DNA of 64,000 nucleotides from Bdellovibrionales bacterium (GCA_041736155.1 JBGSUL010000018.1:2066-66065), one strand, 5' to 3'; shown: positions 25,155 through 51,397, counted from the first letter of the stretch. Numbers and translations are program-made. The notes: generated by a model from the letters alone, not told the origin.

Positions 25155-25163
25155 TAAAATTCC

Positions 25164-28034
25164 TTATTTACAAACTTTCGCGGTCGAAACCATTTTTGAG
25201 AATCCATATTTTGAATCGAGCGTCTGCAAGTAATTTATCATACTGCTGTCTTGATTTGCCAAAACGCAAACATTCCAGTCTTTTAGAAATTGAAGTTTTG
25301 CTTGTTGATGAGTTTCTTTATTAAAAGGAGATGTTTTACATTTTTTGCCAAAGTATAGTACATTTGGGTTTAAAAGATCTGTTATCAGATTGGAGTCTTC
25401 GTCTTCGTCTTTATCTTTTAATAAAAGTGTGCCCATCATTGAGTATCCACGACGAGAAAATTCTACGGAATAGGTGCCACTAACTGTGGCAACCATATTT
25501 ACTGGCTCACAGGAATCAGACGATTGAGAGATGAATGTGTCAGACACATCGTTTTCGATATGATTAGATGTAAATGATCTGAAAAAATCAGACTCTGCTT
25601 GCGAAAGGATTTTTCCTGAGCACGATTTGTTCAATAAAGATTCTAAAGCAACAAATGAACCAATAGTCGTCCAATCTTTAATTTCATTATCAGTGACATT
25701 TTCAAAGCGACACTGGACATCTGATGAAGGGATCGGAGATTGAAAAGAATCTAAAACTTTTGAAAATGATGGAAACTCATCAAGGGCATTAGCCCCAGCA
25801 ACAACACTCATGAGTTCATAAATTGAAATTGGATTTATGCCAGTTAATTTTGCATTTTCTAAAAGCAAAAGTTCTTTAATAATTTTTTGCCAAAACTCTT
25901 TATCTGTTGATAGGTACGCGTACACGGGACTAACTACAAGATTACTATAGCTGATGGGCATAAGAGTAATTCCAAGAGAATCTGTTGTTGCATACTTGCC
26001 TTTTAACGAGTTTTCGATATTTTCTTTTCCAGCCCAGAGTAAAATACTTAGTGGAAGCATTTGCTGGGTTGGGAATAATTTTTGATTTATTGTTGCCCCT
26101 TTTTCAACAACGGAAATTGCGAAGGATTCGTTTTGAAATATTCTAAATACTTGTTTTAAGATCGGCATTAAAGTTCCGACCGCATCTTCGGATGACTTTT
26201 TGGCTTCAAAAATATGGAGCACAAGTATCCATGGGAGACTCATTTTAATTTCCCCACCAACTGCATCAGAAATCGCCAATTTATCATTAAAATTTTGTCC
26301 TATAGTAGAAATCACATTGGACTTGAGTAAAAGCTTATTCAGCGTATTCCAAGTAGTATTATTTTTTATTGAATACATCAAAAGAGAGTGAATCAGCGTT
26401 ATTTTTTCTTCTTCAGGAAAAGAGTTAATAGGATGATCCGATAGAGCAACCAAGTAGTCCACCACCTCAACGTAAGAAGTGTCATTTTGCTCTACGATCC
26501 TTGAGACTGCATTGGTGAGTGCTGCTGCGCCGAAACTATTATCAAACGGAAGTCCAGACTGTTTCAAAGAAATGAGCTGAGATTGTGCAAAAGGACCTGT
26601 TTTGGATTCTACGACGGCAACCTCGATAGCGTCAGTTTGCTCCGACGGGTCAAAGGGAATATTTGATTCTGTGAGGAGGCTTAGAATGCCTACATTGTTA
26701 TTTTTAACAGCCGCAGCGAAAGCCCCTTTTGGAATTTTCCCAGAATAGTTTAAAGTGAAACTTACAAGATCTGTCTTTTGACTTAATGTTAAGTTCGATA
26801 CAATAATCTCTGAAAGAGTATTTGTTGAGGATCGATCCGTAGTATAGTCTAAAAATAAACTCACAATTTCCGTATAGGTCTTTTTATCAAGACCTTCCGC
26901 AAATCCCACTTTAAGAGTATTCAGTGAATGCTGATCGAGCGAATATCCTGATTTTTCAAGGCTACCTTTTCTCCAAGTGGTCAGAATGTCTTTGATAAGC
27001 ATTGATTTTTTAGCTGTACCAGTGGATGAAAATGTGACACTTAGCACATCTTCAGTGAATGAGTTTTTATGACTTGCCGGAAAATTAAGTTTTAAAAATG
27101 AAGAATGAATAGCAACAACGCCGCTACTGTCATTTTGTATAGAGGTCTTAATAGAGTTCTGTGCAAGATTGTTTAAAAATTCAAAATTAAGAATGACCCG
27201 CTCTGTTGAGGCAATTACTTCGATTTGCTTTGAAAGCCAATTAGGGTTCTGAACAGAGTCTTCAACTTTTAAGTCCTCTACTTTGATTCCATCTGTAAAA
27301 GCAAGGTCTACAACTACAATGGTGTTCTTCTGAACTCTCGCTGCATCAACGGCATCAATTAGATAAGAGAAAAATTCAGGATTTTCCATTTTATTAGACG
27401 CGATTAGCAGTCGTTCTTGATTTTTAAGAACATCGAGTGACTCGTAAGATCGGCCTTCGATAAAATATTTGAGTAAGTCCTCAGCTCTGTCAGAGGGGCC
27501 GGAAATAAAAATAAATGGGTACTCGATTAATGTTTGTGTAGCCATTGGTAAGCTAAAAGGAATATTATTTTTTTTGATAATCGAAAGCACTACGTCAAAC
27601 TTTGAATCTGTTAAATTTTTAGCAATTGCAGTGGTCATTACCGAAATACTTTTTTGAAACAGTTTTTGTATTTCAGTGTCGTCCTTATGGATTTTGCTGT
27701 ACGCAGTTTCTTTTGGACTATCTTTAATTGATACAAATGGCATAGCATTGGCTTTTAAAAGCATTTCCACTAGAACTGCGTCGCGCATCTGCACTGAACG
27801 AATCAAGACTGTGTTGCCCTGGGCATCATACTGTTCAAGGTCAGTACCAGTATTGATTAATGCTGCAACTGATTTGTAGTCTTTTTTGAGAACAGCATCA
27901 AAAAGTTCGTTACTTAATTCTGAATCAGACTTCTTTTCAGGAACTTCAACAATTCTAGGAGGGACCTCTTCTTTAAATGAGCAACTTGCTAACGCCAGCA
28001 CAAAGATAATTATAATTCCCTTGCAGTATTTCAT
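25164..28034 (-). CDS. large (956 aa) lipoprotein with N-terminal ankyrin repeats
   Basis: Lipobox LALASC. The ankyrin-like stretch LFDAVLKKDYKSVAALINTGTDLEQYDAQGNTVLIRSVQMRDAVLVEMLLKANA. The rest has no recognisable family. Confidence 0.65.
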   Translation of the reverse strand: MKYCKGIIIIFVLALASCSFKEEVPPRIVEVPEKKSDSELSNELFDAVLKKDYKSVAALINTGTDLEQYDAQGNTVLIRSVQMRDAVLVEMLLKANAMPFVSIKDSPKETAYSKIHKDDTEIQKLFQKSISVMTTAIAKNLTDSKFDVVLSIIKKNNIPFSLPMATQTLIEYPFIFISGPSDRAEDLLKYFIEGRSYESLDVLKNQERLLIASNKMENPEFFSYLIDAVDAARVQKNTIVVVDLAFTDGIKVEDLKVEDSVQNPNWLSKQIEVIASTERVILNFEFLNNLAQNSIKTSIQNDSSGVVAIHSSFLKLNFPASHKNSFTEDVLSVTFSSTGTAKKSMLIKDILTTWRKGSLEKSGYSLDQHSLNTLKVGFAEGLDKKTYTEIVSLFLDYTTDRSSTNTLSEIIVSNLTLSQKTDLVSFTLNYSGKIPKGAFAAAVKNNNVGILSLLTESNIPFDPSEQTDAIEVAVVESKTGPFAQSQLISLKQSGLPFDNSFGAAALTNAVSRIVEQNDTSYVEVVDYLVALSDHPINSFPEEEKITLIHSLLMYSIKNNTTWNTLNKLLLKSNVISTIGQNFNDKLAISDAVGGEIKMSLPWILVLHIFEAKKSSEDAVGTLMPILKQVFRIFQNESFAISVVEKGATINQKLFPTQQMLPLSILLWAGKENIENSLKGKYATTDSLGITLMPISYSNLVVSPVYAYLSTDKEFWQKIIKELLLLENAKLTGINPISIYELMSVVAGANALDEFPSFSKVLDSFQSPIPSSDVQCRFENVTDNEIKDWTTIGSFVALESLLNKSCSGKILSQAESDFFRSFTSNHIENDVSDTFISQSSDSCEPVNMVATVSGTYSVEFSRRGYSMMGTLLLKDKDEDEDSNLITDLLNPNVLYFGKKCKTSPFNKETHQQAKLQFLKDWNVCVLANQDSSMINYLQTLDSKYGFSKMVSTAKVCK

Positions 28035-29545
28035 GGCTTCTCCTGCTGAATATTTCCAAAGAACTTATATTTTTTGGAATATAATGTATTTTCATTTATT
28101 TTTAAAATTTCAGCTTGTTTACGATTTTTTGATGAGACCGACATAGCTTCTTCAATAGCATTTTTTTCAATCAAGTGAGTTACATCATCAAGGCCGAGAT
28201 GATTGTCTTGCTGAACGAGTCGCTCTGCAATTTTTCTAATCAAGACTTCTAGTGGTTCAAAATCTCTCATTTTAACTGATTTTTTACCATCTACTTGTAT
28301 AAGAATATTTTTCCACATGGAGTAGTCTCGTTTGCCATTTGGTTTAAGTGGACAAAAAATAAAAACTCTTTCAAGTTCGTTTCTTATACCTCGAATGTTA
28401 AATGGTATGTAATCACTTTGAAAATGTTCTTTGAGTGATTGCGGAAAATCAGTATAAGAAAAATCTTGTTTGTGTTCTCTCTGAATTTCATTGGTAATGA
28501 GCTGACAAATATAAGGTAAATCTTCTTTACGTTCTTGTAGGGACGGCATATTTAGGCTGACAATGCTGATTCTAGCGTAGAGGTCGGAACGAAAATATCC
28601 TTGCTTTACCATTTCTTCTAAATTTTTGTTTGTAGCGTATATGTTTCGAGCATTCATTTTGATGTCTGTGTTTCCACCTACGCGACGGAAACTTTTCTCT
28701 TCAATGACCTTAAGCATACTTCCTTGCAGTTCCAGGGAGGCATCTCCAATTTCATCTAAAAAAAGATCCCCGCCAGCAGCGGCTTCAAAAAGTCCTTGTT
28801 TTCTTTCGTTAGAACTTGTGAATGAACCCTTTTCTGAACCGAATAATTCGGATTCGATCAGTGTTTTAGGTATAGAATTTATATTGACGTTTATAAACGG
28901 TCTTTGCTGCTGTTTATTTGCTTCTTTTGTTAATTGGCTTAATCGTTTGGCGGCATGTGTTTTTCCGAGTCCTGATTCTCCAAGAATTAAAACAGGCGTA
29001 TTTACTGAGGCTAGGGTCTTTAACTTAAAGTCAAAATCCTGCATTGCTTTTGACTTCACTATGTATGTGCCTGAATCAGTTTCACCTGTTGTCTTTTGAG
29101 AAAAAAGTTCGAGTTCAGTTTTTGCAGACTTTAGAGCGTTGAGAATTTGTTGGTCGCAGTACAGTTGATTATCAGCAGACGGTTTTTTTGATACATATCC
29201 TAATGCACCATATTGCATGGCTTTGACAGCAGCATGAACATCCTCGCAGGCAGTAATTACTAATATTTTAGAGCGAGGACTAATCTCTAGGATATTTGGA
29301 ATTTCATCAATGCCATCAATTCTGTCGCCGTCCGGCGTTTCGCCCAGATCCTTATCGAGAAGAATCACATGAAATGTTTCTTCTCTGATTTTAAAGCGCA
29401 TTTCTTCAACTGTGGTGGCTGTCTTTATATTAAGAAGGCTCTTATCAAGACTTTTAAAGATGGAAGAGACTCTATAATGAAGAGTAAATAGAGTATCTTT
29501 GTGATCATCCACAATTAAAATGCTGACCTGATCTCGACTATTCAT
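28031..29545 (-). CDS. sigma-54-dependent response regulator (NtrC-family bEBP: receiver + AAA+ + Fis-type HTH)
   Basis: Receiver ILIVDDHKD...HVILLDKDLG. Walker A LILGESGLGKTH. ESELFGSEKGSFTSS (variant GAFTGA loop). GGDLFLDEIGD. C-terminal NRKQAEILKINENTLYSKKYKF. Confidence 0.85.
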   Translation of the reverse strand: MNSRDQVSILIVDDHKDTLFTLHYRVSSIFKSLDKSLLNIKTATTVEEMRFKIREETFHVILLDKDLGETPDGDRIDGIDEIPNILEISPRSKILVITACEDVHAAVKAMQYGALGYVSKKPSADNQLYCDQQILNALKSAKTELELFSQKTTGETDSGTYIVKSKAMQDFDFKLKTLASVNTPVLILGESGLGKTHAAKRLSQLTKEANKQQQRPFINVNINSIPKTLIESELFGSEKGSFTSSNERKQGLFEAAAGGDLFLDEIGDASLELQGSMLKVIEEKSFRRVGGNTDIKMNARNIYATNKNLEEMVKQGYFRSDLYARISIVSLNMPSLQERKEDLPYICQLITNEIQREHKQDFSYTDFPQSLKEHFQSDYIPFNIRGIRNELERVFIFCPLKPNGKRDYSMWKNILIQVDGKKSVKMRDFEPLEVLIRKIAERLVQQDNHLGLDDVTHLIEKNAIEEAMSVSSKNRKQAEILKINENTLYSKKYKFFGNIQQEKP

Positions 29546-29752: not shown

Positions 29753-29768
29753 TGGCACTCCTTTTGAT
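29753..29768 (+). promoter_or_regulatory. sigma-54-type (-24/-12) promoter candidate for the tra operon
   Basis: TGGCAC-tcctt-TTGAT has the consensus TGGCAC-N5-TTGCW spacing. The -12 element is GA instead of GC. It lies about 87 nt upstream of ATG 29855 and about 45-125 nt downstream of the inverted repeats. Confidence 0.5.
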
Positions 29769-29854
29769 ATATGTCGGTTTGACTGAATAGAAAGTCTTTT
29801 AAGTTAAAGACAAAAAATCAGATCGTTTTGAACTTGAAAGAAAAAGGAGAATTT

Positions 29855-30073: not shown

Positions 30074-30238
30074 ATGGATCAGCTTCGATTGATTGTGCTT
30101 AAAATGTTTAAAATATCAGATGAAGATCGTACAGAACCCGTTTCTGAGTTTGAACTTATCCTTCGAGACAGAATTAAAGAAGTTCTTGGGTTCTATTCAA
30201 ATAAACAAAATATGAAGGTTGTTAAAAATGGAAAGTAA
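30074..30238 (+). CDS. small hypothetical protein (54 aa)
   Basis: Manual translation: MDQLRLIVLKMFKISDEDRTEPVSEFELILRDRIKEVLGFYSNKQNMKVVKNGK*. It starts 4 nt after the previous stop and overlaps the next start. Below the ORF-track size cut-off. Confidence 0.3.
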   Translation: MDQLRLIVLKMFKISDEDRTEPVSEFELILRDRIKEVLGFYSNKQNMKVVKNGK

Positions 30239-33203
30239 CAAAGACATCAATATTGCAATCACAGGAATATTATTCGTCCTTGTTTTATCTTTCTTATGGA
30301 TTTTAACATTAAAAGCAGGAATTTTTGAGTCTGTTAAAATTATCCAAGCTTACTTTTTAGTAAAAGGTGGAGCATTTTCATTTGTGATTTTAAAAGTGAT
30401 CGTAGTTTATTGCCTTGCCATATTTTCCATCTTGAGTTTTCTAGGAATTGGCGAGTTTGGTAAAAAAATATCTTCCTATAAAAAAACAAAAGATAAAAAA
30501 GAAATCTTTCCGACTGTTATTTCATTCCTTACGGGCCTCATTTCAGGTTGGCTCTTAACAAAATATATAAGTCTTGTTCAGTTGATAGTGCCACTCCCGA
30601 ACATCATACCTTATGAACAGATCAAAATCCTCATCGCAACAATCAATGGTGCTGAAGCGTTATCCGTGGGGTTTTTATTTACTCTCCTTACAAAGAGTCT
30701 GATTAAATTTAATTTCTTAAAAATAGACCGCATTCCAATGATTCCAACACAAAAAAATAAATTAGTTATCGGCACTAAAATCGAAGGTGATGAAGAGAAT
30801 TGGATTGTTCTTGGTGAAAAATCGCTCTCAACAGGTCTACTAACTACTGCTTCTACTGGGAGTGGTAAATCAAGTGCATGTTTGCTTCCTTGGACAAAAC
30901 AAATATTAGAAAATTTTGAACCTAAGCCTTCGATTGTAGTGATTGATGCTAAAGACTCGTTTGCGAGAGACGTTGTAAAGCTCGCTAAAGGGTTAAAGCG
31001 CGATAGCGATCTAGTGCATTTCACGATGGATGGTTCATTTAGAACAAACGTCATCTATCAAAAAGACATACTTAAAAACAGCGGTTATTCAAAAGTGGCG
31101 TCGATGATCCAAGCTGCCACTGACAACTATATGGGGAAACAGACTGGCGAGAGTAAATTCTGGGGTGTGAAGGGCTATACATTCTTAAAGAATATGGTCA
31201 TTTACTGTGCAGGTAAATACGGTGATTATTTCACCCTAAGAGACTTTTATGAGGAAATTATTAAAAGCACAAATTGCGACTATGCTCTTGAGATTGACTC
31301 TTTTTTGCTGAGCGAAAAATTAGATTGGGAAGAAAAGAGAAACCTAGAAATCGCTCAAAGTTACTTTGAATATGAATTCGCAAAACTTGATTCAAAACTT
31401 AAAGACAGCATTGTTCAGTCAGCATCGACATTCCTTGCTCTCTTGAGAGATGCTAAGGTTGAAAAAATATTTTGTCCTAAAAAAGAAGATGTCACATTTT
31501 GGGGATTTGATGAGATCGTAGATAATGGTAAAATCTTCGTTTTTGGAATAGATATACCTGGTCTGTCAGCGCCAATGGCGATTTTGATGAAACTCCTTTA
31601 TCAAAGATCAGTGCTAAATCGAATTAAAGAACCTCAAAGACTTTTAAATAAGCGTCTCAGTGTTGGCATCTATGATGAGTATCAATCTATAGTAACTACA
31701 GGCGGCGGGCAAATCGAAGGCGACGATGATTATGCAGCAAAACGTCGAGAGGCATTGGGTGTAACGATTGCAGCTACACAGTCTTTAAGCTCTCTTGCGC
31801 AGGCCATTGGTAATGATATGGGCCTTGATACGCTTATTCAGAACTTTAGAAATCAGGTCATAGGTCACTCAAAGGACAAGAGAACGGTCGAGTATTGCAA
31901 ATACTTTGCAGGAGAGATCGAGCGCGTGACAGAGAGTAAAAGTTTTTCTGAATCTGGCTCAAATCCATTAAAAAATCTCTTTGGAGGAGGACTTACAACA
32001 TCAAAGCCAACCGTCAGCCAGTCCCTCAATCAGAATGTGCAGAACATTCCACGCATAAATGGTGAAACTCTAAGTACGTTAAGTATTAACGAGGCCGTTG
32101 GGTTTTTCTTTGACGGCGCAAATTCATTTTTCGTCGAAAAAGTGGGTTTAAAACCAAATTATCTAAATAGCATGAGAACAACTCATGCTGATGTTTTGGC
32201 CTTTAGCAGAAAAGCAGCAGCTGTATGTTTGGCTTTATTCATTACTCCAAAAGTTTTTGGAAGCCCTACGGTATGTAGTGCTGTAAAAATGCCGACCTAT
32301 GAAATGTGTATGGAATACAACACGTCTCCGTGCATGTGTGGCGGCACACCGCCTAGACCATGTGTGAGACACTCCTATTATTTCCCACAATCCTTTATTG
32401 AGGTTACAACAGCGGCTAATAAAAGTTTTTTTTCAGAAATCCCAGGAGCGGCAGTTCAAATGTCGTCAGGTTTTCTAGATTCCGTCAGTCATGGAGCCGA
32501 TGACATGGGTGGGTACTTTTATCATGCAAGAATTATCCAGATCCCTTTAAGTAGCTTTGGTTACGAAGGGTTTGCTTGCGGTGGTAATAAGCAAGAAAAG
32601 CTCTGTTTCGATGCTGTATCTGAGCATGTTGATAGTTGGAAGACCGGAATCGCCGATCAATTACAGCCTCAGTACCTTGCTTGGAAAATGGCGATCCCCC
32701 TTTGTTACAAAAAAGCTTTAAAAAATGCCGTTATAGGCGATACCCCCAACCCCCCTTTACAAAATTCCTTGAGCTGTGGGTTCCCACTGAAATCTATCAA
32801 GGTGTTTCCCCCATCCATGAGCGAACAATGCACTGGATGGGGGACTCTTTTTCCTAGAACGGGTTTTGTTGAAAGCTCAAGCTCTGTAGGTGCTGCCCTA
32901 CTGGCTGCAAAACGTCTTAGAAGCTTGGCAAGTGATGTTTATAGATCAACTCCAATGTCGCCGGATGAAAAATGGAGTCTTGTTTACCCAAACTCCTCAA
33001 GCTGCTTTCGAGAAGGTAAATCTCTAGGAGAAATCGAAACAATGCGCGGAGCAAATGAGCTTGGGAGACTTTCAAAAACAAATCATCAGACCTTTTTGTT
33101 TGCTGTGTGGAAAAGAGTGAGCTGTTGCAAGGACTTTGATTCTATACCAGAAACAGCGGCTTCCAAGGTGGCGCTAAAAGCAATTTGCCAAGGGATGGAA
33201 TAA
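30228..33203 (+). CDS. type IV coupling protein (VirD4/TraD/TraG family) fused in frame to a TraU-like domain
   Basis: N-terminal TM helices. Walker A TASTGSGKSSACLLP and Walker B VGIYDEYQS. From aa ~652 comes a signal/TM-like segment (MRTTHADVLAFSRKAAAVCLALFITPKVFG), then TraU-like motifs: YYFPQSFIEVTT, GGYFYHARIIQIPL, CTGWGTLFPRTGFVESSSS, FLFAVWKRVSCC. Confidence 0.75.
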   Translation: MESNKDINIAITGILFVLVLSFLWILTLKAGIFESVKIIQAYFLVKGGAFSFVILKVIVVYCLAIFSILSFLGIGEFGKKISSYKKTKDKKEIFPTVISFLTGLISGWLLTKYISLVQLIVPLPNIIPYEQIKILIATINGAEALSVGFLFTLLTKSLIKFNFLKIDRIPMIPTQKNKLVIGTKIEGDEENWIVLGEKSLSTGLLTTASTGSGKSSACLLPWTKQILENFEPKPSIVVIDAKDSFARDVVKLAKGLKRDSDLVHFTMDGSFRTNVIYQKDILKNSGYSKVASMIQAATDNYMGKQTGESKFWGVKGYTFLKNMVIYCAGKYGDYFTLRDFYEEIIKSTNCDYALEIDSFLLSEKLDWEEKRNLEIAQSYFEYEFAKLDSKLKDSIVQSASTFLALLRDAKVEKIFCPKKEDVTFWGFDEIVDNGKIFVFGIDIPGLSAPMAILMKLLYQRSVLNRIKEPQRLLNKRLSVGIYDEYQSIVTTGGGQIEGDDDYAAKRREALGVTIAATQSLSSLAQAIGNDMGLDTLIQNFRNQVIGHSKDKRTVEYCKYFAGEIERVTESKSFSESGSNPLKNLFGGGLTTSKPTVSQSLNQNVQNIPRINGETLSTLSINEAVGFFFDGANSFFVEKVGLKPNYLNSMRTTHADVLAFSRKAAAVCLALFITPKVFGSPTVCSAVKMPTYEMCMEYNTSPCMCGGTPPRPCVRHSYYFPQSFIEVTTAANKSFFSEIPGAAVQMSSGFLDSVSHGADDMGGYFYHARIIQIPLSSFGYEGFACGGNKQEKLCFDAVSEHVDSWKTGIADQLQPQYLAWKMAIPLCYKKALKNAVIGDTPNPPLQNSLSCGFPLKSIKVFPPSMSEQCTGWGTLFPRTGFVESSSSVGAALLAAKRLRSLASDVYRSTPMSPDEKWSLVYPNSSSCFREGKSLGEIETMRGANELGRLSKTNHQTFLFAVWKRVSCCKDFDSIPETAASKVALKAICQGME

Positions 33204-34747
33204 TGTTTGGTCAATTTTTGGTAGATCAAAAAATTATCAATCAGGCGCAGCTTGATGAGGCATTAGAGGATCAAAAAGTTTCACATGAAAAGCTCGGTCG
33301 AATTTTAATGGCTCAAACAGTCCTAGAAAAAGGACAGCTAGATCAGACGTTATTAACTTATTTAAAAATTGAAAATGCACAGTCTCTTTTAGAAACATAT
33401 AAAGATTCAAAAAATCTTACAAAGGTATTCCTCGGAGAAAAAGTAATTGGTTTTCTGTCGAATGGTACAAAACATCTCTATATCGAAGTATTTTGCGACG
33501 ATGTATTGGTAGAATTAGAAAAAAGGCACTCATTCAAAAAAATCGAATTAATAACAAGTGACCAAAGTAAGTATCTTTCAGGACTTTTTGAAACAAAAGA
33601 TAATAGTCAAAGAGTCGAAAAACCAAAAATATACGGTCCTTTCGATAAGTTTTTATCAAGTGTGTTTGACGAAGCCAAGAAACTTAAGGCCAGCGATATT
33701 CACTTTGACGTGGAAGAGCATGGTCTCAGCGTCCGGTTGAGAGTTCACGGCGATTTGATTGAGTTTAAAAAAGTTGAAAAATCACATGTTCAGTCTTTGA
33801 TGACAAAAGTAAGGAGCGAGGTGGGGCTCCCGCTATCCGTCGTGGGTCGCCCTGCGAGCGGTTCCCGAAATCTTGAGGAATATGGGGTAAAGGTTCGTTC
33901 GGAGTATGCTCCTGAAACTCTTGGAGAAACCATCGTTTGTCGAATTATTGATAACGAAAAAATTAAAAGTGCAAAGATCGAAAATATTGGCGCGGATATT
34001 CTATTTACAGAAAGCTTAATAAAATCTCTCAAAAGAAAAAACGGCCTTATTCTTCTTTGTGGTCAAACAGGGAGCGGTAAATCACTGACTCTTTTTTCAG
34101 CACTTATGTCTCTTGATCGCTTGAGAAAGAAGATAATCACGATTGAGGACCCAGTTGAGTATGAGGGAAATGGTCTTACGCAAATTGATGTGAATAAGCA
34201 CAAGCTTACTTTTAGCGAAGCCTTGAGGTCTAGTCTCAGGCTTGATCCAGATGTGATCATGGTTGGTGAAATACGAGATGAGGAGACTGCAAGTCTTGCG
34301 ATGAGAGCATCGTCCACGGGACATCTAGTGCTAAGCACACTTCATACTAACAGCGCCATAGGGGCTATTAGTCGTTTAAGCGGGATGGGCGTAAAAGAAG
34401 ACGTTTTAGTGGAAAACGTGATTCAAATAAGCGCATTAACTCTTAAAAAAGAGCTGTGTCAAAGGTGCAAAATTCCTATCACCGACTGGAAAGATAAGGA
34501 CACTGAGGCTGAGTTTTTGTCCCTACAAGCCAACAATACAATTTTTTATGAGCCAAACCCAAGTGGCTGCGAGTTTTGTACTCAGGGCCATATTGGTCGA
34601 AAACTTTTAACAGAGACCATTGACTCTGATGTGGTTTATTCAAAGGTTTTTTCTAAAAATAGTGAGGGATATAGGACTTTACTGGATTGCGGAAAAGAGT
34701 ACGCAAGTCTTGGGATTATTTCCCCCTATGAAGTGGTGGGATTATGA
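33203..34747 (+). CDS. GspE/PilB-family secretion ATPase with a T2SSE_N/MshEN-like N-terminal domain
   Basis: Walker A LLCGQTGSGKS. TIEDPVEYE. RLDPDVIMVGEIRDEETA. His box LVLSTLHTN. C-terminal CQRC...CEFC tetracysteine. N-terminus FGQFLVDQKIINQAQLDEALEDQ / KLGRILMAQTVLEKGQLDQTL. TAATG overlap with the upstream gene. Confidence 0.85.
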   Translation: MFGQFLVDQKIINQAQLDEALEDQKVSHEKLGRILMAQTVLEKGQLDQTLLTYLKIENAQSLLETYKDSKNLTKVFLGEKVIGFLSNGTKHLYIEVFCDDVLVELEKRHSFKKIELITSDQSKYLSGLFETKDNSQRVEKPKIYGPFDKFLSSVFDEAKKLKASDIHFDVEEHGLSVRLRVHGDLIEFKKVEKSHVQSLMTKVRSEVGLPLSVVGRPASGSRNLEEYGVKVRSEYAPETLGETIVCRIIDNEKIKSAKIENIGADILFTESLIKSLKRKNGLILLCGQTGSGKSLTLFSALMSLDRLRKKIITIEDPVEYEGNGLTQIDVNKHKLTFSEALRSSLRLDPDVIMVGEIRDEETASLAMRASSTGHLVLSTLHTNSAIGAISRLSGMGVKEDVLVENVIQISALTLKKELCQRCKIPITDWKDKDTEAEFLSLQANNTIFYEPNPSGCEFCTQGHIGRKLLTETIDSDVVYSKVFSKNSEGYRTLLDCGKEYASLGIISPYEVVGL

Positions 34748-35418
34748 TGATCATTATAGTCATCTCACTTCTTCATGCTGAGTATTTTGACCAAAACATT
34801 GAGTATTTTAAGGACCAGACAAAAGCTATTGAGACAAAGAAAAATTTAGAAAAAAAAGAAAAGAAGTTTGATTGGAATACCCATCTTGATAAAAAAAACG
34901 ACGAGTTTTTCAAAGAAGGAGACTATATTCCACCAGCTCCGTTTCTTGAAGCAATGAGACGTCCCACGAAGAAAAATATTCTTCTTTTTGAAAAATGGCA
35001 TGAGAAAAAGAACTTTTTGCTAAAAAGATTCAATGAAAAACGTGCCGAAGTTCTGGGTCGCCCTGTAGTTTCTGAAGAAAAATCAACCGATAAAGAAATT
35101 TCTCTAGATTTGAAAAAATATACTTTTATTTTCTACTTTGATTCCATGTGTTCGTCATGCCGTGGAATGTTTGAAGTTGTAAATGACATGGTAACTCAAG
35201 GGATTTTTATCGAGGCTGTCAGGGTCGATAGTCTTGAAACTGTTGTGCAAGGATTATCCATCCCTTGGACGCGAGCATCTAAGAAGGAAATTGAACAAAC
35301 AAAGATTACAGCAGTTCCTATGCTCCTAGCTTTTGAGAAAGAAACAAAACGAGCATTTAAGATAGTAGGCAAAAAATCAGTTTATGAAATAAATGAAATT
35401 TTAAAAAATCAAAAATAA
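34744..35418 (+). CDS. thioredoxin-fold conjugal transfer protein (TrbB/TraF-like)
   Basis: YFDSMCSSCRGMFEVV contains a CxxC motif in a thioredoxin-like context. The position in the tra operon fits. ATGA overlap upstream. Confidence 0.6.
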   Translation: MMIIIVISLLHAEYFDQNIEYFKDQTKAIETKKNLEKKEKKFDWNTHLDKKNDEFFKEGDYIPPAPFLEAMRRPTKKNILLFEKWHEKKNFLLKRFNEKRAEVLGRPVVSEEKSTDKEISLDLKKYTFIFYFDSMCSSCRGMFEVVNDMVTQGIFIEAVRVDSLETVVQGLSIPWTRASKKEIEQTKITAVPMLLAFEKETKRAFKIVGKKSVYEINEILKNQK

Positions 35419-35427: not shown

Positions 35428-35817
35428 ATGAAAATTTTAAGAAAGATTTTAAAAATATTTAATTGGGATCTAATGACGCTACTTTTGCTGTTAGCATTTG
35501 TGCTTTTCCTCTCATCAAAGGCATCGGCGATAAATATCAGCGGAGAGGATATTTCTGGAGATATGGAGACAGTGGGTAGTCTTTTTAAAACAGCGGATAC
35601 GATGACCTTTGGTTGGGCGTCGCCCCTAATTGCGGGGATATTCATTATTATCGGCTGCGTAGGTCTTATTCGATCAAACTTTATGGTGTTTTTTCTCTGT
35701 TTTACAGCAGCCATTCTCATTTTGCTTGTTCCAAAGATTGTTTCCGAGCTTCGTAGAAAGGGCGGAGATTCGGTCATTAACGCCAAGGCCGTATTTCTAG
35801 AGAAACACTATGTTTGA
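35428..35817 (+). CDS. candidate T4SS pilin (TraA/VirB2-like)
   Basis: Long leader ending SSKASA, then two hydrophobic helices (WASPLIAGIFIIIGCVGLI; FMVFFLCFTAAILILLV). Sits directly upstream of the traL-like gene, as in F. Confidence 0.5.
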   Translation: MKILRKILKIFNWDLMTLLLLLAFVLFLSSKASAINISGEDISGDMETVGSLFKTADTMTFGWASPLIAGIFIIIGCVGLIRSNFMVFFLCFTAAILILLVPKIVSELRRKGGDSVINAKAVFLEKHYV

Positions 35818-36121
35818 TTACAAGAAGATCAAAAGAGAACACGCAAAGGTTACTAATAGAGTCTTATCTGAACCAATCATGGTATTTGATTTTTTGGAGC
35901 TCAAAGAGGCATTACTTGGTGTATTTTTGTTCTTTTATTTTGGCATTGTGGATACAAAGCCATTTTTGCTTCTTACACTACTTTTTTTACTAGTGTTTAT
36001 ATGGCCTCCGTTTAGAGAAAAAATTCCAAGGGGATATCTCCTCCACAAGATATCCAGATATTCGCCAGTAAAAATACCAAACTTTATTGGTGTCAACGGT
36101 TCTTCAAAATTAAGAGTATAG
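35810..36121 (+). CDS. traL: TraL-like small membrane protein
   Basis: 103 aa with a central hydrophobic hairpin (ALLGVFLFFYFGIV...LLLTLLFLLVFIW). F-like gene order pilin-traL-traE-traK-traB. Confidence 0.55.
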   Translation: MFDYKKIKREHAKVTNRVLSEPIMVFDFLELKEALLGVFLFFYFGIVDTKPFLLLTLLFLLVFIWPPFREKIPRGYLLHKISRYSPVKIPNFIGVNGSSKLRV

Positions 36122-37062: not shown

Positions 37063-37842
37063 ATGAATTTTTCGACTTTGATGAATAGAGCTGTTGTTCA
37101 ATTCTCGCCTCTTCGCGATGATCTTGTAGATTTTGTTAAAAAAGGAGCAAAACGCCGAGAAACGAAAATTAAACTCAAAGACTTAACAGAGGCAAGGCTT
37201 AAAAAGATTCCAAACTACATTGCCGTTGAAGTGGCAAAACAGAAGATCAGTCTCACAAAGGATGCCTTAATTGTAGGACTTTTGAGTTTGGTTTTAATCC
37301 TTATGTATTCGGTAACGAATCTTGCAAGCAAGATGGATGAACGAATCGTGGCTCTTATTCCAAGTCGAATTGAGAAAGCAACAGAGGTGCAGCCGAATCA
37401 GATTAGTCCGGCTGCACTTTACAGCAAACTTTCATCTTTTATCAGTTTGCTCGGCAATATCGACCATGGAAACGTTGATTTTAATTACGAAGTGCTGCGC
37501 GGTCTGATGTCTGACGAGTTAAAGGTTAAATTTTGGGCAGACTCCACCCAGCTCAGGAAAATTGTGAAAGAAAAAAGCATGAGTCAGACCATAAGCTACG
37601 ACATGAAGGATATGAGTGTTGGTAGCCGTGGGAAAACGATAAGCGCGCTGGTGAAAGTGAAGATCAAGCCCATGTATGGTGATGAGCTTGGGAAAATCCG
37701 TGAAGAATACATGCTTCTTGAGGGAACTGTTGTTGTGAAAAAAGAAGATAATTTTTGGGAGATTGAACTATTTAATCTTGAGCAAGGTCCGTTGAGCGAT
37801 ATTGCAAAAGTTAAACGTCGAATTGAAGGCGGCTTAGAATGA
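37063..37842 (+). CDS. traE: TraE-like bitopic T4SS protein
   Basis: Single TM LIVGLLSLVLILMYSV, followed by PAALYSKLSSFISLLGNIDHGNVD... as in F TraE. Synteny supports the call. Confidence 0.55.
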   Translation: MNFSTLMNRAVVQFSPLRDDLVDFVKKGAKRRETKIKLKDLTEARLKKIPNYIAVEVAKQKISLTKDALIVGLLSLVLILMYSVTNLASKMDERIVALIPSRIEKATEVQPNQISPAALYSKLSSFISLLGNIDHGNVDFNYEVLRGLMSDELKVKFWADSTQLRKIVKEKSMSQTISYDMKDMSVGSRGKTISALVKVKIKPMYGDELGKIREEYMLLEGTVVVKKEDNFWEIELFNLEQGPLSDIAKVKRRIEGGLE

Positions 37843-38624
37843 TGAATTTAATTCTACTTCTTTCATTATGTTTGGGTGCCTATGCAAAAGATCTACGATT
37901 TGGATCAAAGACTTTAAAAGTGTCAGTTCGTTGGGAAATGATTGACCCTATGAATCCATCTTTGGGGCTCAAGCCTACTTATTTGAGATTTACAAAGCCT
38001 GTATATCGTTTCGACAACATCACTTTGTTTTCGCTAGAAGCGGTGAAGAGCAGAAATGGTTCATCAGATTTTCGTGAATTTAAAATATTGCCGAGAAAAT
38101 CTCTTGGTCATCAAACTGTAGAGATTCAACTTCAGGATCGAACTCTTGTTACGGTGGATTTCTCTGTTTCAAGGGAAGAATCGACACCGTTATCGTATGA
38201 TTTTAAGCCTGAGAAAATACCTGACTTAAATGATTCGAGCGAAAGAGTTTATACAGATGTCGTTATAATGAAATCTATCCTTTTAGGGCATAATCTCTAT
38301 GGGTTTGAAAAGAAATCAGAAAAGGCTAATTTAGCTTGTGGCGATAGAAACGTAAAAGTCGAGGTAAGCAGTCATCTTGAGGGACATGGGTTTAAGATTT
38401 TTCAAGTAAAGGTCTTTAATCTTTCAAAAAAAGATTCTTATAGTTTTATTCCCGAAAGTGTTGGTTTTGAAAAAAGAGACTTTTCAAAATCCGAATTAAA
38501 GCATTTTGAAAAAGAAGCATTATTGCCGCAGAAAAATGCGATCGTGACGATTGTTGTAGATATAGGTGCAAACATTAATTTTCTGAAAATCTGTAAAATT
38601 GGATCTCAACTCAAAAAATCTTAA
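37839..38624 (+). CDS. traK: TraK-like (VirB9-class) periplasmic T4SS protein
   Basis: Signal peptide MMNLILLLSLCLGAYA. Position between the traE-like and traB-like genes. ATGA overlap. Confidence 0.5.
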   Translation: MMNLILLLSLCLGAYAKDLRFGSKTLKVSVRWEMIDPMNPSLGLKPTYLRFTKPVYRFDNITLFSLEAVKSRNGSSDFREFKILPRKSLGHQTVEIQLQDRTLVTVDFSVSREESTPLSYDFKPEKIPDLNDSSERVYTDVVIMKSILLGHNLYGFEKKSEKANLACGDRNVKVEVSSHLEGHGFKIFQVKVFNLSKKDSYSFIPESVGFEKRDFSKSELKHFEKEALLPQKNAIVTIVVDIGANINFLKICKIGSQLKKS

Positions 38625-39862: not shown

Positions 39863-40067
39863 TACGGCTTGCACGAGTTTTCCAGACAGTACACGAGAGC
39901 TTTGGAAAAGATCAGGTTACATGGACGATTCAAAACCACAGCAAAGTGTGTCTTTGGAAAGAAAAATCCAAAGGCATGAAAAAGTATATCTTGGAAAAAG
40001 AATTCTACCAAGTGGCGATGTTTTTGAGAATGGTACTATTTTAATCCTCATGGACAAGATCAACTAG
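39819..40067 (+). CDS. traV: TraV-like outer-membrane lipoprotein
   Basis: MRIRKILASLILLSSTAC lipobox from ATG 39819 after an AGGAAGGA SD. Position between the traB-like and traC-like genes. Confidence 0.5.
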   Translation: MRIRKILASLILLSSTACTSFPDSTRELWKRSGYMDDSKPQQSVSLERKIQRHEKVYLGKRILPSGDVFENGTILILMDKIN

Positions 40068-46326: not shown

Positions 46327-46668
46327 ATGAAAGACAATCATTTAGAAGATCAGATTGTACCTAGAACAACAATTCGTATGACAAAAGAACAATTTCAAAA
46401 AGTGAATTTTTTAGCAAAAGAAATGAAGAAAACTGTACCAAAGGTTTTTTTAGATCTTTTAGATCGAAGAACACCGCAGGTTACTTTGTTAAATAGTGAC
46501 AATGCAGGAAAGATAAAAACTGAGTTAAATCGAATTGGAAACAACATTAATCAAATAGCAAGAAAAGTAAATTCAGGCGAAGCCGTCCTAGGCAGTTCCT
46601 TTGAAGAATTTAAGGAACAGTTAAATGTCCTTTATAACTACATGGTGAGGACAAGTGGCCTACGTTAA
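46327..46668 (+). CDS. mobC: MobC-family relaxosome accessory protein
   Basis: LNRIGNNINQIARKVN matches the MobC signature LxxIGNNLNQIAR. Confidence 0.8.
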   Translation: MKDNHLEDQIVPRTTIRMTKEQFQKVNFLAKEMKKTVPKVFLDLLDRRTPQVTLLNSDNAGKIKTELNRIGNNINQIARKVNSGEAVLGSSFEEFKEQLNVLYNYMVRTSGLR

Positions 46669-50854: not shown

Positions 50855-51161
50855 ATTTATTGAATTCAACACTCTAGTTATCTTAAAACTTAATAGCTCA
50901 TGTTAATATTTATTTTAAGAAACCTATAGCGTTTCCGTTCGTCTATTTTAGTAGATTTTGTCGCATTGCTTTTTATATTTTTCACTAGAAATAGATAGGA
51001 GTATGAAATATGTTTATATCGAGAAAAGAAAATCATTTAAAAGATGATTTATGGCTCTTTGAAATTTTGGCGAATATTCGGAATCAAAAATACTCGGTGG
51101 TTTTTGTATGAAAAGGCCCCCCTACTCTTCACCAAAGAGGCAGGAGCCTTTGATTGAGGAA

Positions 51162-51395: not shown

Positions 51396-51397
51396 TT

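What the first reader, a model, noticed from the sequence alone, without database searches (positions are those of the whole stretch)
33203..34747. PilB/GspE-type hexameric ATPase with an MshEN-like N-domain sits inside an otherwise F-type (TraL/E/K/B/V/C/U/H/G) gene set
Classical F-type T4SSs have no VirB11-class ATPase, and VirB11 proteins are short (about 330-350 aa). Here the second large gene of the operon is a full-length GspE/PilB-like protein. It has Walker A GQTGSGKS, the Asp box, the His box and a CxxC...CxxC zinc site. Its N-terminus contains two tandem 24-residue repeats: FGQFLVDQKIINQAQLDEALEDQ and KLGRILMAQTVLEKGQLDQTL. These resemble the T2SSE_N/MshEN fold, which binds c-di-GMP in some homologs. 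The central Gly and leading Arg of the published RLGxxLLxxGLLxxxxLxxxLxxQ motif are replaced here. This suggests a hybrid machine powered in the manner of a type IV pilus or T2SS, possibly gated by a nucleotide second messenger.
Basis: partly seen in the sequence, partly recalled or inferred. Interest (0 to 1): 0.65.

Follow-up and report, generated by a model that had tools for sequence, protein, structure and literature searches.

The report
PilB/GspE-type ATPase in F-like conjugation operon
An integrated conjugative element of predatory-type bacteria (Bdellovibrionota) encodes, inside a divergent F-like DNA-transfer machine, a motor ATPase of the kind that normally builds type IV pili or type II secretion fibres; the gene travels with this machine in nearly every relative examined, so it is a new variant of a known system.

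Summary
ORF 33203-34747(+) encodes a 514-aa PF00437 ATPase (E 2.7e-80) with intact Walker A/B, Asp and His boxes and a CxxC...CxxC site.

By profile score, fold and phylogeny it belongs to the PilB/GspE/MshE extension-ATPase group. It is not VirB11/TrbB, DotB/TraJ, PilT or CpaF.

Its first about 127 residues are an MshEN/T2SSE_N domain. This passes NCBIfam NF053729 (50 bits against a cutoff of 38), and the AF2 model's best PDB match is MshE with c-di-GMP.

The gene is translationally coupled to a T4CP-TraU fusion upstream and a TrbB/TraF-like gene downstream. It sits in a divergent F-like tra operon with relaxase and integrase, so the element is an ICE.

When loci are anchored on TraC, 24 of 25 related Bdellovibrionota loci carry the ATPase. 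ATPase and TraC distances co-vary (Mantel r 0.85). No PilC/GspF platform, prepilin or second T2SSE gene is nearby.

My best reading is that it is an integral third ATPase filling the VirB11 slot.

c-di-GMP gating is plausible but unproven:
- Two key contacts are systematically changed.
- Many relatives lack the domain.

I found no description of this arrangement in the literature I searched. It is a new variant of a known kind, of moderate to high interest.

The parts
33203..34747 (+). GspE/PilB-class hexameric secretion ATPase, 514 aa, with no transmembrane segment
   Evidence: Pfam T2SSE E 2.7e-80. NCBIfam best matches are GspE at 268 bits and PilB at 261 bits; VirB11 scores 56. PDB profile hits are PilF/GspE/PilB at 255-277 bits. 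AF2 pLDDT 87; Foldseek matches PilF/PilB/GspE with target-normalised TM-score up to 0.87. No hydrophobic segment.
33203..33583 (+). N1 domain (residues 1-127): MshEN/T2SSE_N fold, a four-helix bundle followed by an alpha/beta subdomain
   Evidence: NF053729 50 bits against a cutoff of 38. AF2 N-domain model pLDDT 92.4. The top 19 Foldseek PDB hits are all MshEN/GSPII/T2SSE_N domains, and 5HTL is first.
33203..33274 (+). MshEN motif I (residues 1-24, MFGQFLVDQKIINQAQLDEALEDQ). The Arg position is taken by the initiator Met.
   Evidence: Aligned to MshE residues 9-32. Clade conservation: G3 in 31 of 33, Q24 in 32 of 33.
33290..33361 (+). MshEN motif II (residues 30-53, KLGRILMAQTVLEKGQLDQTLLTY). 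The closing Gln is replaced by Tyr.
   Evidence: Aligned to MshE residues 38-61. Clade conservation: K30 in 32 of 33, G32 and R33 in 33 of 33, F or Y at position 53 in 33 of 33.
33638..33967 (+). N2 domain (residues 146-255)
   Evidence: AF2 secondary structure and the Pfam T2SSE span.
33998..34744 (+). C-terminal ATPase domain (residues 266-514). Walker A is at 34061-34084. The tetracysteine region is at 34457-34579.
   Evidence: Motifs read directly from the translation and invariant in the clade.
30219..33203 (+). 994-aa fusion of a coupling-protein-like ATPase (T4CP) and a TraU-like Cys-rich domain. Its stop codon TAA overlaps the ATPase ATG (TAATG).
   Evidence: Pfam hits among 7 family members: TraU 6 of 7, TrwB_AAD_bind 6 of 7, TraG-D_C 4 of 7, T4SS-DNA_transf 4 of 7. 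hhalign to F TraU 66%. Hydrophobic segment at residues 657-675 and 14 Cys after residue 680. Overlap read.
34744..35418 (+). TrbB/TraF-like thioredoxin-fold protein. Its start overlaps the ATPase stop (ATGA).
   Evidence: hhalign to F TrbB 89%. Weak Pfam TraF and Thioredoxin_2 matches. Overlap read.
35428..35817 (+). Candidate VirB2/TraA-type pilin
   Evidence: NCBIfam TraA_gammapb E 9e-5, below its cutoff. Signal-like segment plus two hydrophobic segments. Conserved position in all related loci.
35810..36121 (+). TraL (VirB3-like)
   Evidence: Weak Pfam TraL match. The orthologous 103-aa gene in L056 hits PF07178 without a weak or faint mark.
37063..37842 (+). TraE (VirB8-like)
   Evidence: Pfam TraE 23.4 bits against 24.8. 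TIGR02761 E 5e-5. hhalign to F TraE is collinear over 107 columns but has low probability.
37839..38624 (+). TraK-like protein, assigned through relatives
   Evidence: No direct hit. Orthologous genes in L008 and L056 hit PF23536 TraK_C.
38645..39862 (+). TraB (VirB10-like)
   Evidence: hhalign to F TraB 99.2%, E 8e-20. TrbI Pfam hits in relatives.
39792..40067 (+). TraV-like small protein (weak support)
   Evidence: hhalign to F TraV 11%, E 0.003, over 60 columns. Position between TraB and TraC is conserved.
40080..42560 (+). TraC (VirB4), closest to the F type
   Evidence: Pfam TraC_F_IV 50 bits. TIGR02746 TraC-F-type scores 125 bits, PFL_4706 78 and VirB4_CagE 64, all below the equivalog cutoffs. 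hhalign to F TraC 99.4%.
43391..44680 (+).
   Evidence: No match to F TraH. One faint PF06122 hint in L057. Present in all related loci.
44643..46151 (+). TraG N-terminal-domain-like polytopic membrane protein (VirB6-like)
   Evidence: hhalign to F TraG 89%. Weak TraG_N Pfam hit in L009. Multiple hydrophobic segments.
46327..48403 (+). MobC/NikA-like accessory protein and MobA/VirD2-type (MOBP-like) relaxase
   Evidence: Pfam MobC E 6e-9 and Relaxase E 1.6e-23. NCBIfam relaxase families.
51108..52633 (+). HTH_17 small protein (possibly an excisionase) and a tyrosine integrase, marking the right end of the ICE
   Evidence: Pfam Phage_integrase E 8e-22. HTH_17 E 3e-5. The same pair is found at the end of L006 and L007.
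28031..29545 (-). Response-regulator sigma-54 enhancer-binding protein, divergent from the tra operon; a possible regulator of the element
   Evidence: Pfam Sigma54_activat E 1.8e-53 and Response_reg. An equivalent gene lies upstream of the operon in L003 and L057; the L057 copy is 37% identical to this one.

Best explanation
The gene encodes a soluble hexameric ATPase of the PilB/GspE/MshE (extension-ATPase) lineage. It has become a fixed component of a divergent F-like conjugative type IV secretion system carried by integrative conjugative elements of Bdellovibrionota.

Shown here:
- its family assignment;
- intact catalytic motifs;
- an MshEN-type N1 domain;
- translational coupling to the coupling-protein gene upstream and the TrbB/TraF-like gene downstream;
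- near-universal co-occurrence and co-divergence with the system's TraC/VirB4;
- absence of any PilC/GspF platform or prepilin nearby.

Inferred:
- It works at the cytoplasmic base of the T4SS as the third ATPase, in the role VirB11/TrbB plays in P-type systems and DotB/TraJ in I-type systems.
- It would dock transiently on TraC and/or the coupling protein, and use ATP hydrolysis to drive or switch between pilus biogenesis and DNA transfer.
- In the sub-lineages that keep the N1 domain, including this window, activity or docking is probably controlled through that domain. The control could be c-di-GMP (or a related ligand) or a protein partner.
For: Family assignment:
- Pfam T2SSE E 2.7e-80.
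- NCBIfam scores: GspE 268, PilB 261, PilT 161, TraJ 94, DotB 74, TrbB/VirB11 57 bits.
- PDB profile scores: PilF/GspE/PilB 255-277, BfpD 139, PilT 137, DotB 91, VirB11 52, CpaF 44 bits.
- AF2 pLDDT 87; Foldseek matches PilF/PilB/GspE with target-normalised TM-score up to 0.87.

Phylogeny (NJ trees):
- The conjugation-linked ATPases form their own clade (63% bootstrap with 29 members).
- That clade groups with PilB/GspE/MshE and R64 PilQ, apart from PilT, TraJ and VirB11 (66-72%).
- Grouping with TrwD (VirB11) occurs in 3-11% of replicates and with TraJ in 0-6%.

Integration into the T4SS:
- The order T4CP(-TraU), ATPase, TraF-like, pilin, TraL, TraE, TraK, TraB, TraV, TraC recurs in L001-L008, L056 and L057.
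- Of the 39 GTDB loci returned by the TraC-anchored scan, 20 keep the full 10 kb upstream of TraC; all 20 carry the ATPase, as does L035, whose copy is cut by the contig end.
- The TraC-anchored tally is 24 of 25 loci.
- Mantel r is 0.848 between ATPase and TraC distance matrices, with 0 of 2000 permutations reaching it.
- P0067 was placed in the clade from the tree alone. Its genomic context, checked afterwards, was tra-linked.
- The start and stop codons overlap the neighbouring genes: TAATG and ATGA.

Other points:
- No T2SSF homologue, prepilin motif or second T2SSE gene is present in the window or in L001-L009.
- N1 domain evidence.
- Background: VirB11 docks under the VirB4 hexamer; the F plasmid system has no VirB11 (PMC12857230).
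Against: - There is no experimental or structural evidence for an interaction with TraC or the coupling protein.
- All characterised PilB/GspE-class ATPases act on a PilC/GspF platform. A platform-free role therefore has no precedent.
- One related locus (L009) has the pilin-to-TraG_N genes but lacks the coupling protein, the ATPase and the TraF-like gene nearby. The core channel genes can thus occur apart from this three-gene module, at least locally.
- The trees are neighbour-joining with moderate support and few reference sequences. TadA/CpaF and FlaI were judged only by profile scores.
- No RNA data exist for this contig.
Confidence: 0.6

Rival explanations
1. The element-encoded PilB-class ATPase plugs into the host's own type IVa pilus or T2SS platform (PilC/PilM, host pilins). 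It would make or modulate type IV pili that bring mating partners together, as the thin pilus of IncI1 plasmid R64 does, and would not act on the T4SS itself.
For: The protein is of the extension-ATPase class, with tetracysteine and N1 domains typical of PilB/MshE. In R64 a PilB-type ATPase (PilQ) serves conjugation through a type IV pilus (PMC4027160). That Bdellovibrio uses type IVa pili for prey invasion is stated in the abstract of PMC6428892 (listed).
Against: R64 encodes the whole pilus set next to PilQ: platform, pilin, prepilin peptidase and PilP/PilO. Here none is present in 64 kb or in the relatives. The gene is translationally coupled to the coupling protein and the TraF-like gene and co-diverges with TraC. 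That pattern is expected for a partner inside the element and not for a host partner.
Confidence: 0.12
2. The N1 domain is not a c-di-GMP sensor here. It is a protein-docking module, as GspE N1 binds GspL and Xanthomonas PilB N-terminus binds PilZ. It would tether the ATPase to a Tra protein or a regulator. This is a rival only for the gating step.
For: Two of the twelve key ligand-contact positions are systematically changed: R9 is replaced by the initiator Met in 29 of 33 sequences, and Q61 by F or Y in 33 of 33. L54 is Cys in 23 of 33. Foldseek also matches the PilB(N)-PilZ complex 7LKO and XpsE-N. Xanthomonas PilB does not bind c-di-GMP (PMC10333796).
Against: The domain passes the curated NF053729 cutoff. 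G11, L25, L29, Q32, L39, G40 and L58 equivalents are conserved. Wang et al. report that imperfect motifs can still bind, and that changing Arg9 or Gln32 changed affinity no more than fivefold (PMC5013675). N1-bearing relatives outside the window clade often start M-K/R-F-G, which restores the basic residue.
Confidence: 0.4
3. It is an ordinary VirB11/TrbB-type T4SS ATPase that merely looks long.
For: It belongs to the same PF00437 superfamily and has the same genomic role.
Against: TIGR02788 VirB11 scores 56 bits against a cutoff of 250, and TrbB_P 57 against 305. PDB VirB11 chains score 24-52 bits against 255-277 for PilB/GspE. Core identity is 20% to R388 TrwD against 36-41% to GspE/MshE. 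Grouping with TrwD occurs in 3-11% of bootstrap replicates. The protein has N1, N2 and a tetracysteine site.
Confidence: 0.02
4. The gene is cargo or a decaying remnant with no role in transfer.
For: One related locus has a frameshifted copy (L045), but there several tra genes are broken too.
Against: All catalytic motifs are invariant in 33 sequences down to 41% identity. The gene is present in 24 of 25 TraC-anchored loci. It co-diverges with TraC.
Confidence: 0.04

Closest known systems
VirB11/TrbB/TrwD traffic ATPases of P-type (MPF_T) T4SSs
   Same: They share the PF00437 hexameric ATPase superfamily. Both are encoded within a conjugative T4SS operon as a third ATPase beside VirB4 and the coupling protein, and both are soluble.
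   Different: VirB11 is about 330-360 aa (R388 TrwD 358 aa; HP0525 330 aa). It has no N1/MshEN domain and no tetracysteine site. It shares only about 20% core identity and forms a separate clade.
PilQ of IncI1 plasmid R64 (thin-pilus ATPase)
   Same: It is a PilB-class ATPase encoded by a conjugative element, of similar length (517 aa), and groups with the extension ATPases.
   Different: PilQ sits in a complete type IVb pilus operon with a platform, pilin, prepilin peptidase and PilP/PilO, and is separate from the tra genes. Here there is no such set, and the gene lies between the coupling protein and a TraF-like gene. Core identity is 33%.
MshE / PilB / T. thermophilus PilF with MshEN (GSPII) domains
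   Same: The overall architecture is the same: N1 (MshEN), N2 and a CTD with a Zn site. The two 24-residue motifs have the same 5-residue spacer. The best sequence and fold matches are to these proteins.
   Different: This protein is shorter (514 against about 560-580 aa). R9, G18, G47 and Q61 equivalents are changed. It falls below the equivalog cutoffs for GspE and PilB (268 against 630; 261 against 676). It is a separate clade and is not nested in MshE (1% of bootstrap replicates). Its context is a T4SS and not a pilus or T2SS operon.
TraJ (R64) / DotB of I-type T4SSs
   Same: These are precedents for a non-VirB11 member of the superfamily (PilT-like) serving a T4SS (PMC4027160).
   Different: They belong to a different subfamily: NCBIfam scores are TraJ 94 bits and DotB 74 bits. 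They lack N1 and the Zn site. Grouping with TraJ occurs in 0-6% of bootstrap replicates.
F plasmid Tra system (MPF_F)
   Same: TraC, TraB, TraG_N, TraU-domain, TrbB/TraF-like, TraL and TraE homologues occur in a similar order.
   Different: The F plasmid has no PF00437 ATPase (PMC12857230). This system is very divergent: all equivalog cutoffs are missed. No TraW, TrbC or TraN was detected, TraH is unconfirmed, TraU is fused to the coupling protein, and the relaxase is MOBP-like and not MOBF.

Membership tests
Type II/IV secretion ATPase superfamily (Pfam PF00437 T2SSE) | Profile match above the gathering score; Walker A and B, Asp box and His box | tested here: met
   270 bits against a cutoff of 24.9. 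Motifs read and invariant.
GspE/PilB/MshE extension-ATPase subgroup | N2 plus CTD architecture with a tetracysteine Zn site; closer to GspE/PilB than to PilT, VirB11, DotB or CpaF | tested here: met
   CxxC...CxxC at residues 419-459. Score ranking. Fold ranking. Trees (66-72% support for grouping with the extension ATPases).
GspE (TIGR02533) or PilB (TIGR02538) equivalogs | Score above the curated equivalog cutoff | tested here: not met
   GspE 267.8 against 630; PilB 261.2 against 676. The protein is not an orthologue of either.
GspE/PilB functional systems | Co-encoded polytopic platform protein (GspF/PilC) and prepilin-type substrates | tested here: not met
   An HMM built from GspF, HofC and R64 PilR found nothing in six-frame ORFs of the window or L001-L009, and there is no prepilin motif. 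A host-encoded platform elsewhere in the genome cannot be excluded.
VirB11 / TrbB | Score above the TIGR02788 or TIGR02782 cutoff; about 330-360 aa; clade membership | tested here: not met
   56.5 against 250 and 57.3 against 305. Length is 514 aa. Groups with TrwD in 3-11% of bootstrap replicates.
TadA/CpaF (the name NCBI gives some homologues) | Match to TadA/CpaF models or structures better than to other subfamilies | tested here: not met
   TIGR03819 scores 52 against 373. CpaF PDB chains score 44 bits against 255-277 for PilB/GspE. The 'Flp pilus assembly ATPase TadA' names seen look like over-general annotation.
MshEN c-di-GMP-binding domain | Domain model match, and a four-helix bundle plus alpha/beta subdomain fold | tested here: met
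   NF053729 50 bits against 38. AF2 pLDDT 92. The top 19 Foldseek hits are all MshEN/GSPII/T2SSE_N domains.
MshEN c-di-GMP-binding domain | Two RLGxxLLxxGLLxxxxLxxxLxxQ motifs with a 5-residue spacer; the six key residues (R, L, G, L, L, Q) in each | tested here: inconclusive
   The spacer and register are kept. In the window protein, 9 of the 12 key residues are kept or conservatively hydrophobic (F2 standing in for Leu), and R38 is replaced by Lys. R9 is lost (it is the initiator Met) and Q61 is Tyr. Both turn glycines are changed in the window protein.
MshEN c-di-GMP-binding domain | Measured c-di-GMP binding | not testable with these tools
   This needs ITC, DRaCALA or DSF on residues 1-127.
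F-type mating-pair formation system (MPF_F) | VirB4 of the TraC-F type, plus the F-specific proteins TraL, E, K, B, V, W, U, TrbC, N, F, H and G | tested here: inconclusive
   TraC is closest to the F type but far below the cutoff (125 against 567; PFL_4706/MPF_G scores 78). TraB, TraG_N, the TraU domain and TrbB/TraF-like are supported. TraL, E, K and V are weak or supported through relatives. TraH is unconfirmed. TraW, TrbC and TraN were not detected. It is best called a divergent F-like lineage.
Integrative conjugative element | T4SS plus coupling protein plus relaxase plus integrase, embedded in a chromosome | tested here: met
   Relaxase and integrase. Related copies lie within contigs of 0.6-2.5 Mb. 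The att sites were not found.

The most novel reading that the evidence does not exclude
A PilB-class extension motor, working without a PilC platform, directly drives assembly (and perhaps retraction) of a VirB2/TraA-type conjugative pilus, or drives DNA transfer, in an F-like T4SS. In the N1-bearing lineages it would be switched by c-di-GMP. This would be the first second-messenger-gated conjugation motor, and a natural bridge between type IV pilus and type IV secretion energetics.
Probability: 0.2. Interest if true: 0.8.

Novelty: new variant of a known kind. Interest (0 to 1): 0.6.

Why it matters
F-type conjugation systems are the textbook case of a T4SS that works without a VirB11-class ATPase. 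How their dynamic pili are powered is still debated.

This window shows a whole F-like lineage, found in ICEs across Bdellovibrionota, that stably carries a third ATPase from a different branch of the same superfamily: the branch that extends type IV pili and T2SS pseudopili. Many of these ATPases also carry a c-di-GMP-receptor-type domain.

If the ATPase proves essential, three things follow:
- The 'VirB11 slot' can be filled by convergent recruitment, alongside DotB/TraJ from the PilT branch.
- A PilB-type motor that acts without a PilC platform becomes available for study.
- A direct link between second-messenger signalling and horizontal gene transfer becomes testable.

There is also a practical use. 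Public databases currently call these proteins 'TadA' or 'GspE/PulE family', so the association with conjugation is invisible to annotation pipelines. Together with the T4CP-TraU fusion, this ATPase clade could serve as a marker for the ICE family.

Tried and rejected
- Close relatives on sequenced plasmids: tblastn against PLSDB found nothing above 38% identity. The hits were ordinary T2SS GspE and similar genes.
- Element ends: no tRNA gene in the window and no convincing direct repeats flanking 29.6-52.7 kb. The att sites were not found.
- Expression: the contig occurs only in DNA runs, chiefly hot-spring metagenomes, and no RNA run was found.
- TraH and TraK claims: hhalign of the family alignments against F TraH and F TraK gave no support. 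TraK is supported only by Pfam TraK_C hits in relatives. TraH is supported only by one faint hint.
- Coupling-protein half against solved structures by sequence: no TrwB or TraD hit. The assignment rests on Pfam hits across family members.
- Conserved sigma-54 promoter upstream of the operon: a good match in the window (TGGCAC-N5-TTGA at 29753) was not found by the same pattern in L001, L003, L005 or L057. By eye, L057 has a GG-N8-TTGCA at the right spacing. This is left as a lead.
- Delimiting the clade by score: the exhaustive profile search showed no sharp score gap between conjugation-type and canonical PilB/MshE representatives. Some top hits are tandem double ATPases of about 1000 aa. 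Clade size therefore cannot be read from scores.
- Literature searches found no description of a PilB/GspE-class ATPase inside an F-like T4SS. The library misses most subscription-journal papers, so prior description cannot be excluded.

Full report
**The observation.** The ORF from ATG 33203 to TGA 34747 on the + strand encodes 514 residues. The mechanical ORF list starts it at a TTG 18 bases upstream. However, 32 homologues begin at the equivalent of the ATG with MFGxFL, and a purine-rich stretch precedes that ATG. Pfam T2SSE matches residues 145-487 at E 2.7e-80. Walker A (GQTGSGKS, 287-294), the Asp box, Walker B, the His box and the two Cys pairs (C419xxC422, C456xxC459) are all present. 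All are invariant in a 33-sequence alignment that reaches down to 41% identity. None of this can be a chance feature.

**Which ATPase it is.** Three independent rankings agree.
- NCBIfam: GspE 268 bits, PilB 261, ComGA 203, PilT 161, plasmid TraJ 94, DotB 74, TrbB and VirB11 57, TadA-like 52.
- A profile of the clade against all PDB sequences: PilF/GspE/PilB 255-277 bits (full-length alignments to Geobacter and Myxococcus PilB), BfpD 139, PilT 137, DotB 91, FlaI 62, VirB11 24-52, CpaF 44.
- An AlphaFold2 model (pLDDT 87.3) against the PDB: PilF, PilB and GspE cores match at E about 1e-36 with target-normalised TM-score up to 0.87, ahead of BfpD, PilT and DotB.

The scores are far below the equivalog cutoffs for GspE and PilB. 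The protein is therefore a member of that subgroup but not an orthologue of either.

I built neighbour-joining trees on about 300 core columns. References were taken from annotated records: E. coli GspE, HofB and YggR, R64 PilQ and TraJ, and R388 TrwD.
- The conjugation-linked proteins form their own clade. The window's 33-member subclade has 100% support, and all 29 sampled conjugation-linked sequences have 63%.
- This clade is sister to canonical PilB/GspE/MshE together with a CPR-like long form and PilQ.
- The whole set is separated from PilT-like, TraJ and VirB11 with 66-72% support.
- Grouping with VirB11 appears in 3-11% of replicates, with TraJ in 0-6%, and nesting inside MshE in 1%.

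**The N-terminal domain.** NCBIfam NF053729 ('cyclic di-GMP-binding domain, MshE-related') matches residues 2-50 at 50 bits against a curated cutoff of 38. Residues 2-52 align without gaps to residues 10-60 of V. cholerae MshE, PDB 5HTL.

A separate AF2 model of residues 1-134 has pLDDT 92.4. It shows four helices followed by an alpha/beta subdomain. Its 19 best PDB matches are all MshEN/GSPII/T2SSE_N domains, and MshE with c-di-GMP is first. The global TM-scores are only about 0.45. My inference is that the two subdomains sit at a different angle in the model.

I mapped the residues that Wang et al. define as key (PMC5013675). Of the 12 key contact positions:
- Kept or conservatively hydrophobic: L10->F2, G11->G3, L25->L17, L29->L21, Q32->Q24, L39->L31, G40->G32, L54->L46 and L58->L50.
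- Changed conservatively: R38->K30.
- Lost: R9, which is the initiator Met, and Q61, which is Tyr.
- The two turn glycines G18 and G47 are Lys and Thr in the window protein.

Across the 33-member clade these are not random changes:

| MshE position | State in the clade (of 33) |
|---|---|
| R9 | Met 29 |
| G11 | Gly 31 |
| Q32 | Gln 32 |
| R38 | Lys 32 |
| G40 | Gly 33 |
| D41 | Arg 33 |
| G47 | Gly 25 |
| L54 | Cys 23 |
| Q61 | Phe or Tyr 33 |

The domain is therefore under selection, but with a modified pocket. Wang et al. note that imperfect motifs still bind. They also note that, in an earlier study, changing Arg9 or Gln32 changed affinity no more than fivefold. Binding is plausible but cannot be decided here.

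**The surroundings.** The gene is the second in a co-directional block running from about 30.2 to 52.6 kb.
- Upstream is a 994-aa protein. Its N-terminal part has three hydrophobic segments and a P-loop domain that hits coupling-protein families. Its C-terminal part, which is Cys-rich and follows another hydrophobic segment at residues 657-675, hits TraU. Across seven family members the hits are TraU 6 of 7, TrwB_AAD_bind 6 of 7, TraG-D_C 4 of 7 and T4SS-DNA_transf 4 of 7.
- The stop codon of that gene overlaps the ATPase start (TAATG). The ATPase stop overlaps the start of the next gene (ATGA). The three genes are therefore translationally coupled.
- Downstream, in order, come:
  - a TrbB/TraF-like thioredoxin protein (hhalign 89% to F TrbB);
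  - a VirB2/TraA-type pilin candidate;
  - TraL;
  - a small zinc-finger protein;
  - an unassigned 172-aa protein;
  - TraE;
  - a TraK-like protein;
  - TraB (99.2% to F TraB);
  - a TraV-like protein;
  - TraC (99.4% to F TraC; TraC-F-type is the best VirB4 model);
  - two small unknown proteins;
  - a conserved 429-aa secreted protein;
  - a TraG_N-like protein (89%).
- After these come:
  - a MobC/NikA-like protein;
  - a MOBP-like relaxase;
  - an AbiEii toxin gene;
  - an HTH_17 protein;
  - a tyrosine integrase.

This is a compact ICE with a very divergent F-like mating apparatus. 'TraH' is not confirmed, and TraW, TrbC and TraN were not detected.

An HMM built from GspF, HofC and R64 PilR finds no platform protein. 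There is no prepilin motif and no second T2SSE gene, either in the window or in nine related loci.

**Conservation of the association.** The protein search found a tight clade of 33 proteins (41-96% identity, 514-533 aa). It is followed by a large score drop to MshE/PilB/GspE at about 33% identity. The few named members come from Bdellovibrionales and Bdellovibrio MAGs and are called 'TadA' or 'GspE/PulE family'.
- Contexts of five clade members (P0028, P0025, P0004, P0033, P0067) show the same gene order.
- To avoid circularity I then anchored on TraC. Its more distant relatives at 36%, 32% and 28% identity also have the T2SSE gene between the coupling protein and the TraF-like gene (L006-L008). 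One at 27% (L009) lacks all three of those genes next to the pilin.
- A scan of one genome per GTDB species with a TraC alignment returned 34 relatives. Nearly all are labelled Bdellovibrionia, Oligoflexia, Bacteriovoracaceae or similar.
- All 20 loci with a full 10 kb upstream, plus one cut at the contig edge, carry the ATPase 5-7.5 kb upstream of TraC on the same strand. One copy (L045) is frameshifted, along with other tra genes in that locus.
- The TraC-anchored tally is 24 of 25.
- Pairwise distances of the ATPase core and of TraC correlate at r = 0.848, with 0 of 2000 permutations reaching that value. The two genes have therefore diverged together and have not been exchanged.

The N1 domain is patchy. 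It is present in the window's clade and in a second TraC sub-clade, where most proteins start M-K/R-F-G-E. It is absent from the other sub-clades, whose ATPases are about 390-410 aa and start at N2. The ATPase core is thus the constant feature, and N1 is an accessory, regulator-like feature.

**Interpretation.** What is shown is a PilB/GspE-class ATPase that is a fixed, co-evolving and co-translated component of an F-like T4SS, with none of its usual pilus or T2SS partners.

What I infer is that it acts at the cytoplasmic base of the T4SS as the third ATPase, in the way VirB11 does under the VirB4 hexamer in other systems (PMC12857230). The tight coupling to the coupling-protein gene points to that protein and TraC as likely partners. 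In N1-bearing lineages the activity would be controlled through the MshEN-type domain. I give this 0.6.

The main rival is a PilB paralogue that uses the host's type IV pilus platform, like the R64 thin pilus. The missing pilus genes and the co-divergence with TraC make this less likely (0.12). Whether N1 binds c-di-GMP or a protein is open, at roughly 40:40 with the remainder for other outcomes. 'Ordinary VirB11' and 'passenger gene' are effectively excluded.

**Novelty.** Reviews state that the F plasmid system works without VirB11 and that VirB11 is rare outside MPF_T. The known exception, TraJ/DotB, comes from the PilT branch. Four full-text searches found no description of a PilB/GspE-class ATPase inside an F-like T4SS, nor of these Bdellovibrionota ICEs. 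The one Bdellovibrio genome paper that came up mentions only 'a plasmid conjugative transfer protein' in a genomic island. PLSDB holds no close relative. I rate it a new variant of a known kind, with interest 0.6. The library does not cover most subscription journals, so earlier mention cannot be ruled out.

Noticed in passing
window 30219-33203 (+): The coupling-protein-like ATPase and a TraU-like Cys-rich domain are one 994-aa ORF, joined by a hydrophobic segment (residues 657-675). This would put a cytoplasmic NTPase and a periplasmic pilus-assembly domain on one chain. Lengths of 989-1010 aa recur in L001, L003, L005, L007, L008 and L057, and 6 of 7 members hit both TraU and TrwB_AAD_bind.
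   Followed up: partly
window 23814-29545 (-) and 29560-29850: A histidine kinase (23814-25154), a 956-aa protein with a weak ankyrin-repeat match and a lipoprotein-like N-terminus (25164-28034) and a response-regulator sigma-54 activator (28031-29545) lie divergent from the tra operon. The intergenic region has inverted repeats, AAAGTCTTTAAATTTCGTGAC at 29628-29648 and GTCACGAAATTTAAAGACTTT at 29688-29708. It also has a sigma-54-like TGGCACtccttTTGA at 29753-29767. A similar activator sits upstream of the operon in L003 and L057; the L057 copy is 37% identical. The promoter pattern was not recovered there by the strict search.
   Followed up: partly
window 49360-50854 (+): An AbiEii-type nucleotidyltransferase toxin (Pfam E 2e-37) is preceded by an overlapping 223-aa ORF with no family hit, which may be its AbiEi-like partner. 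The pair lies between the relaxase and the integrase, so it may be an addiction or defence module carried by the ICE.
   Followed up: no
window 36131-36517 (+): A small protein with a YgiT/MqsA-type zinc finger (TIGR03831, 23 bits against 20) sits between TraL and TraE. Relatives carry zf-dskA_traR or YokU-like small proteins in or near the operon. It may be a TraR-like regulator.
   Followed up: no
L008, L020, L028-L049, L056 (related loci): About half of the related systems carry a short ATPase (about 390-410 aa) that starts at the N2 domain and has no MshEN domain. On the TraC tree the N1-bearing forms fall in two separate sub-clades, which implies repeated loss or gain.
   Followed up: yes
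L009 (ena ERZ27254241 k141_456373): One related tra cluster, from the pilin gene to the relaxase, lacks the coupling protein, the ATPase and the TraF-like gene next to it. A CHASE3 histidine kinase, CheR/CheB and a response-regulator/PAS cluster lie in their place. The three-gene module may be elsewhere in that genome or lost.
   Followed up: partly
representative library hits P0166-P0181: A set of proteins of about 1000 aa, each with two T2SSE-type stretches (tandem double ATPases), scored above most single-domain relatives in the exhaustive profile search. Their context and taxonomy are unknown.
   Followed up: no
L045 and other GTDB loci: Several copies of this ICE family are binned in MAGs labelled Polynucleobacter, Planctomycetales, Myxococcales or 'Candidatus Altimarinota'. 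This could be mis-binning or transfer beyond Bdellovibrionota. The L045 copy has frameshifts in several tra genes.
   Followed up: no
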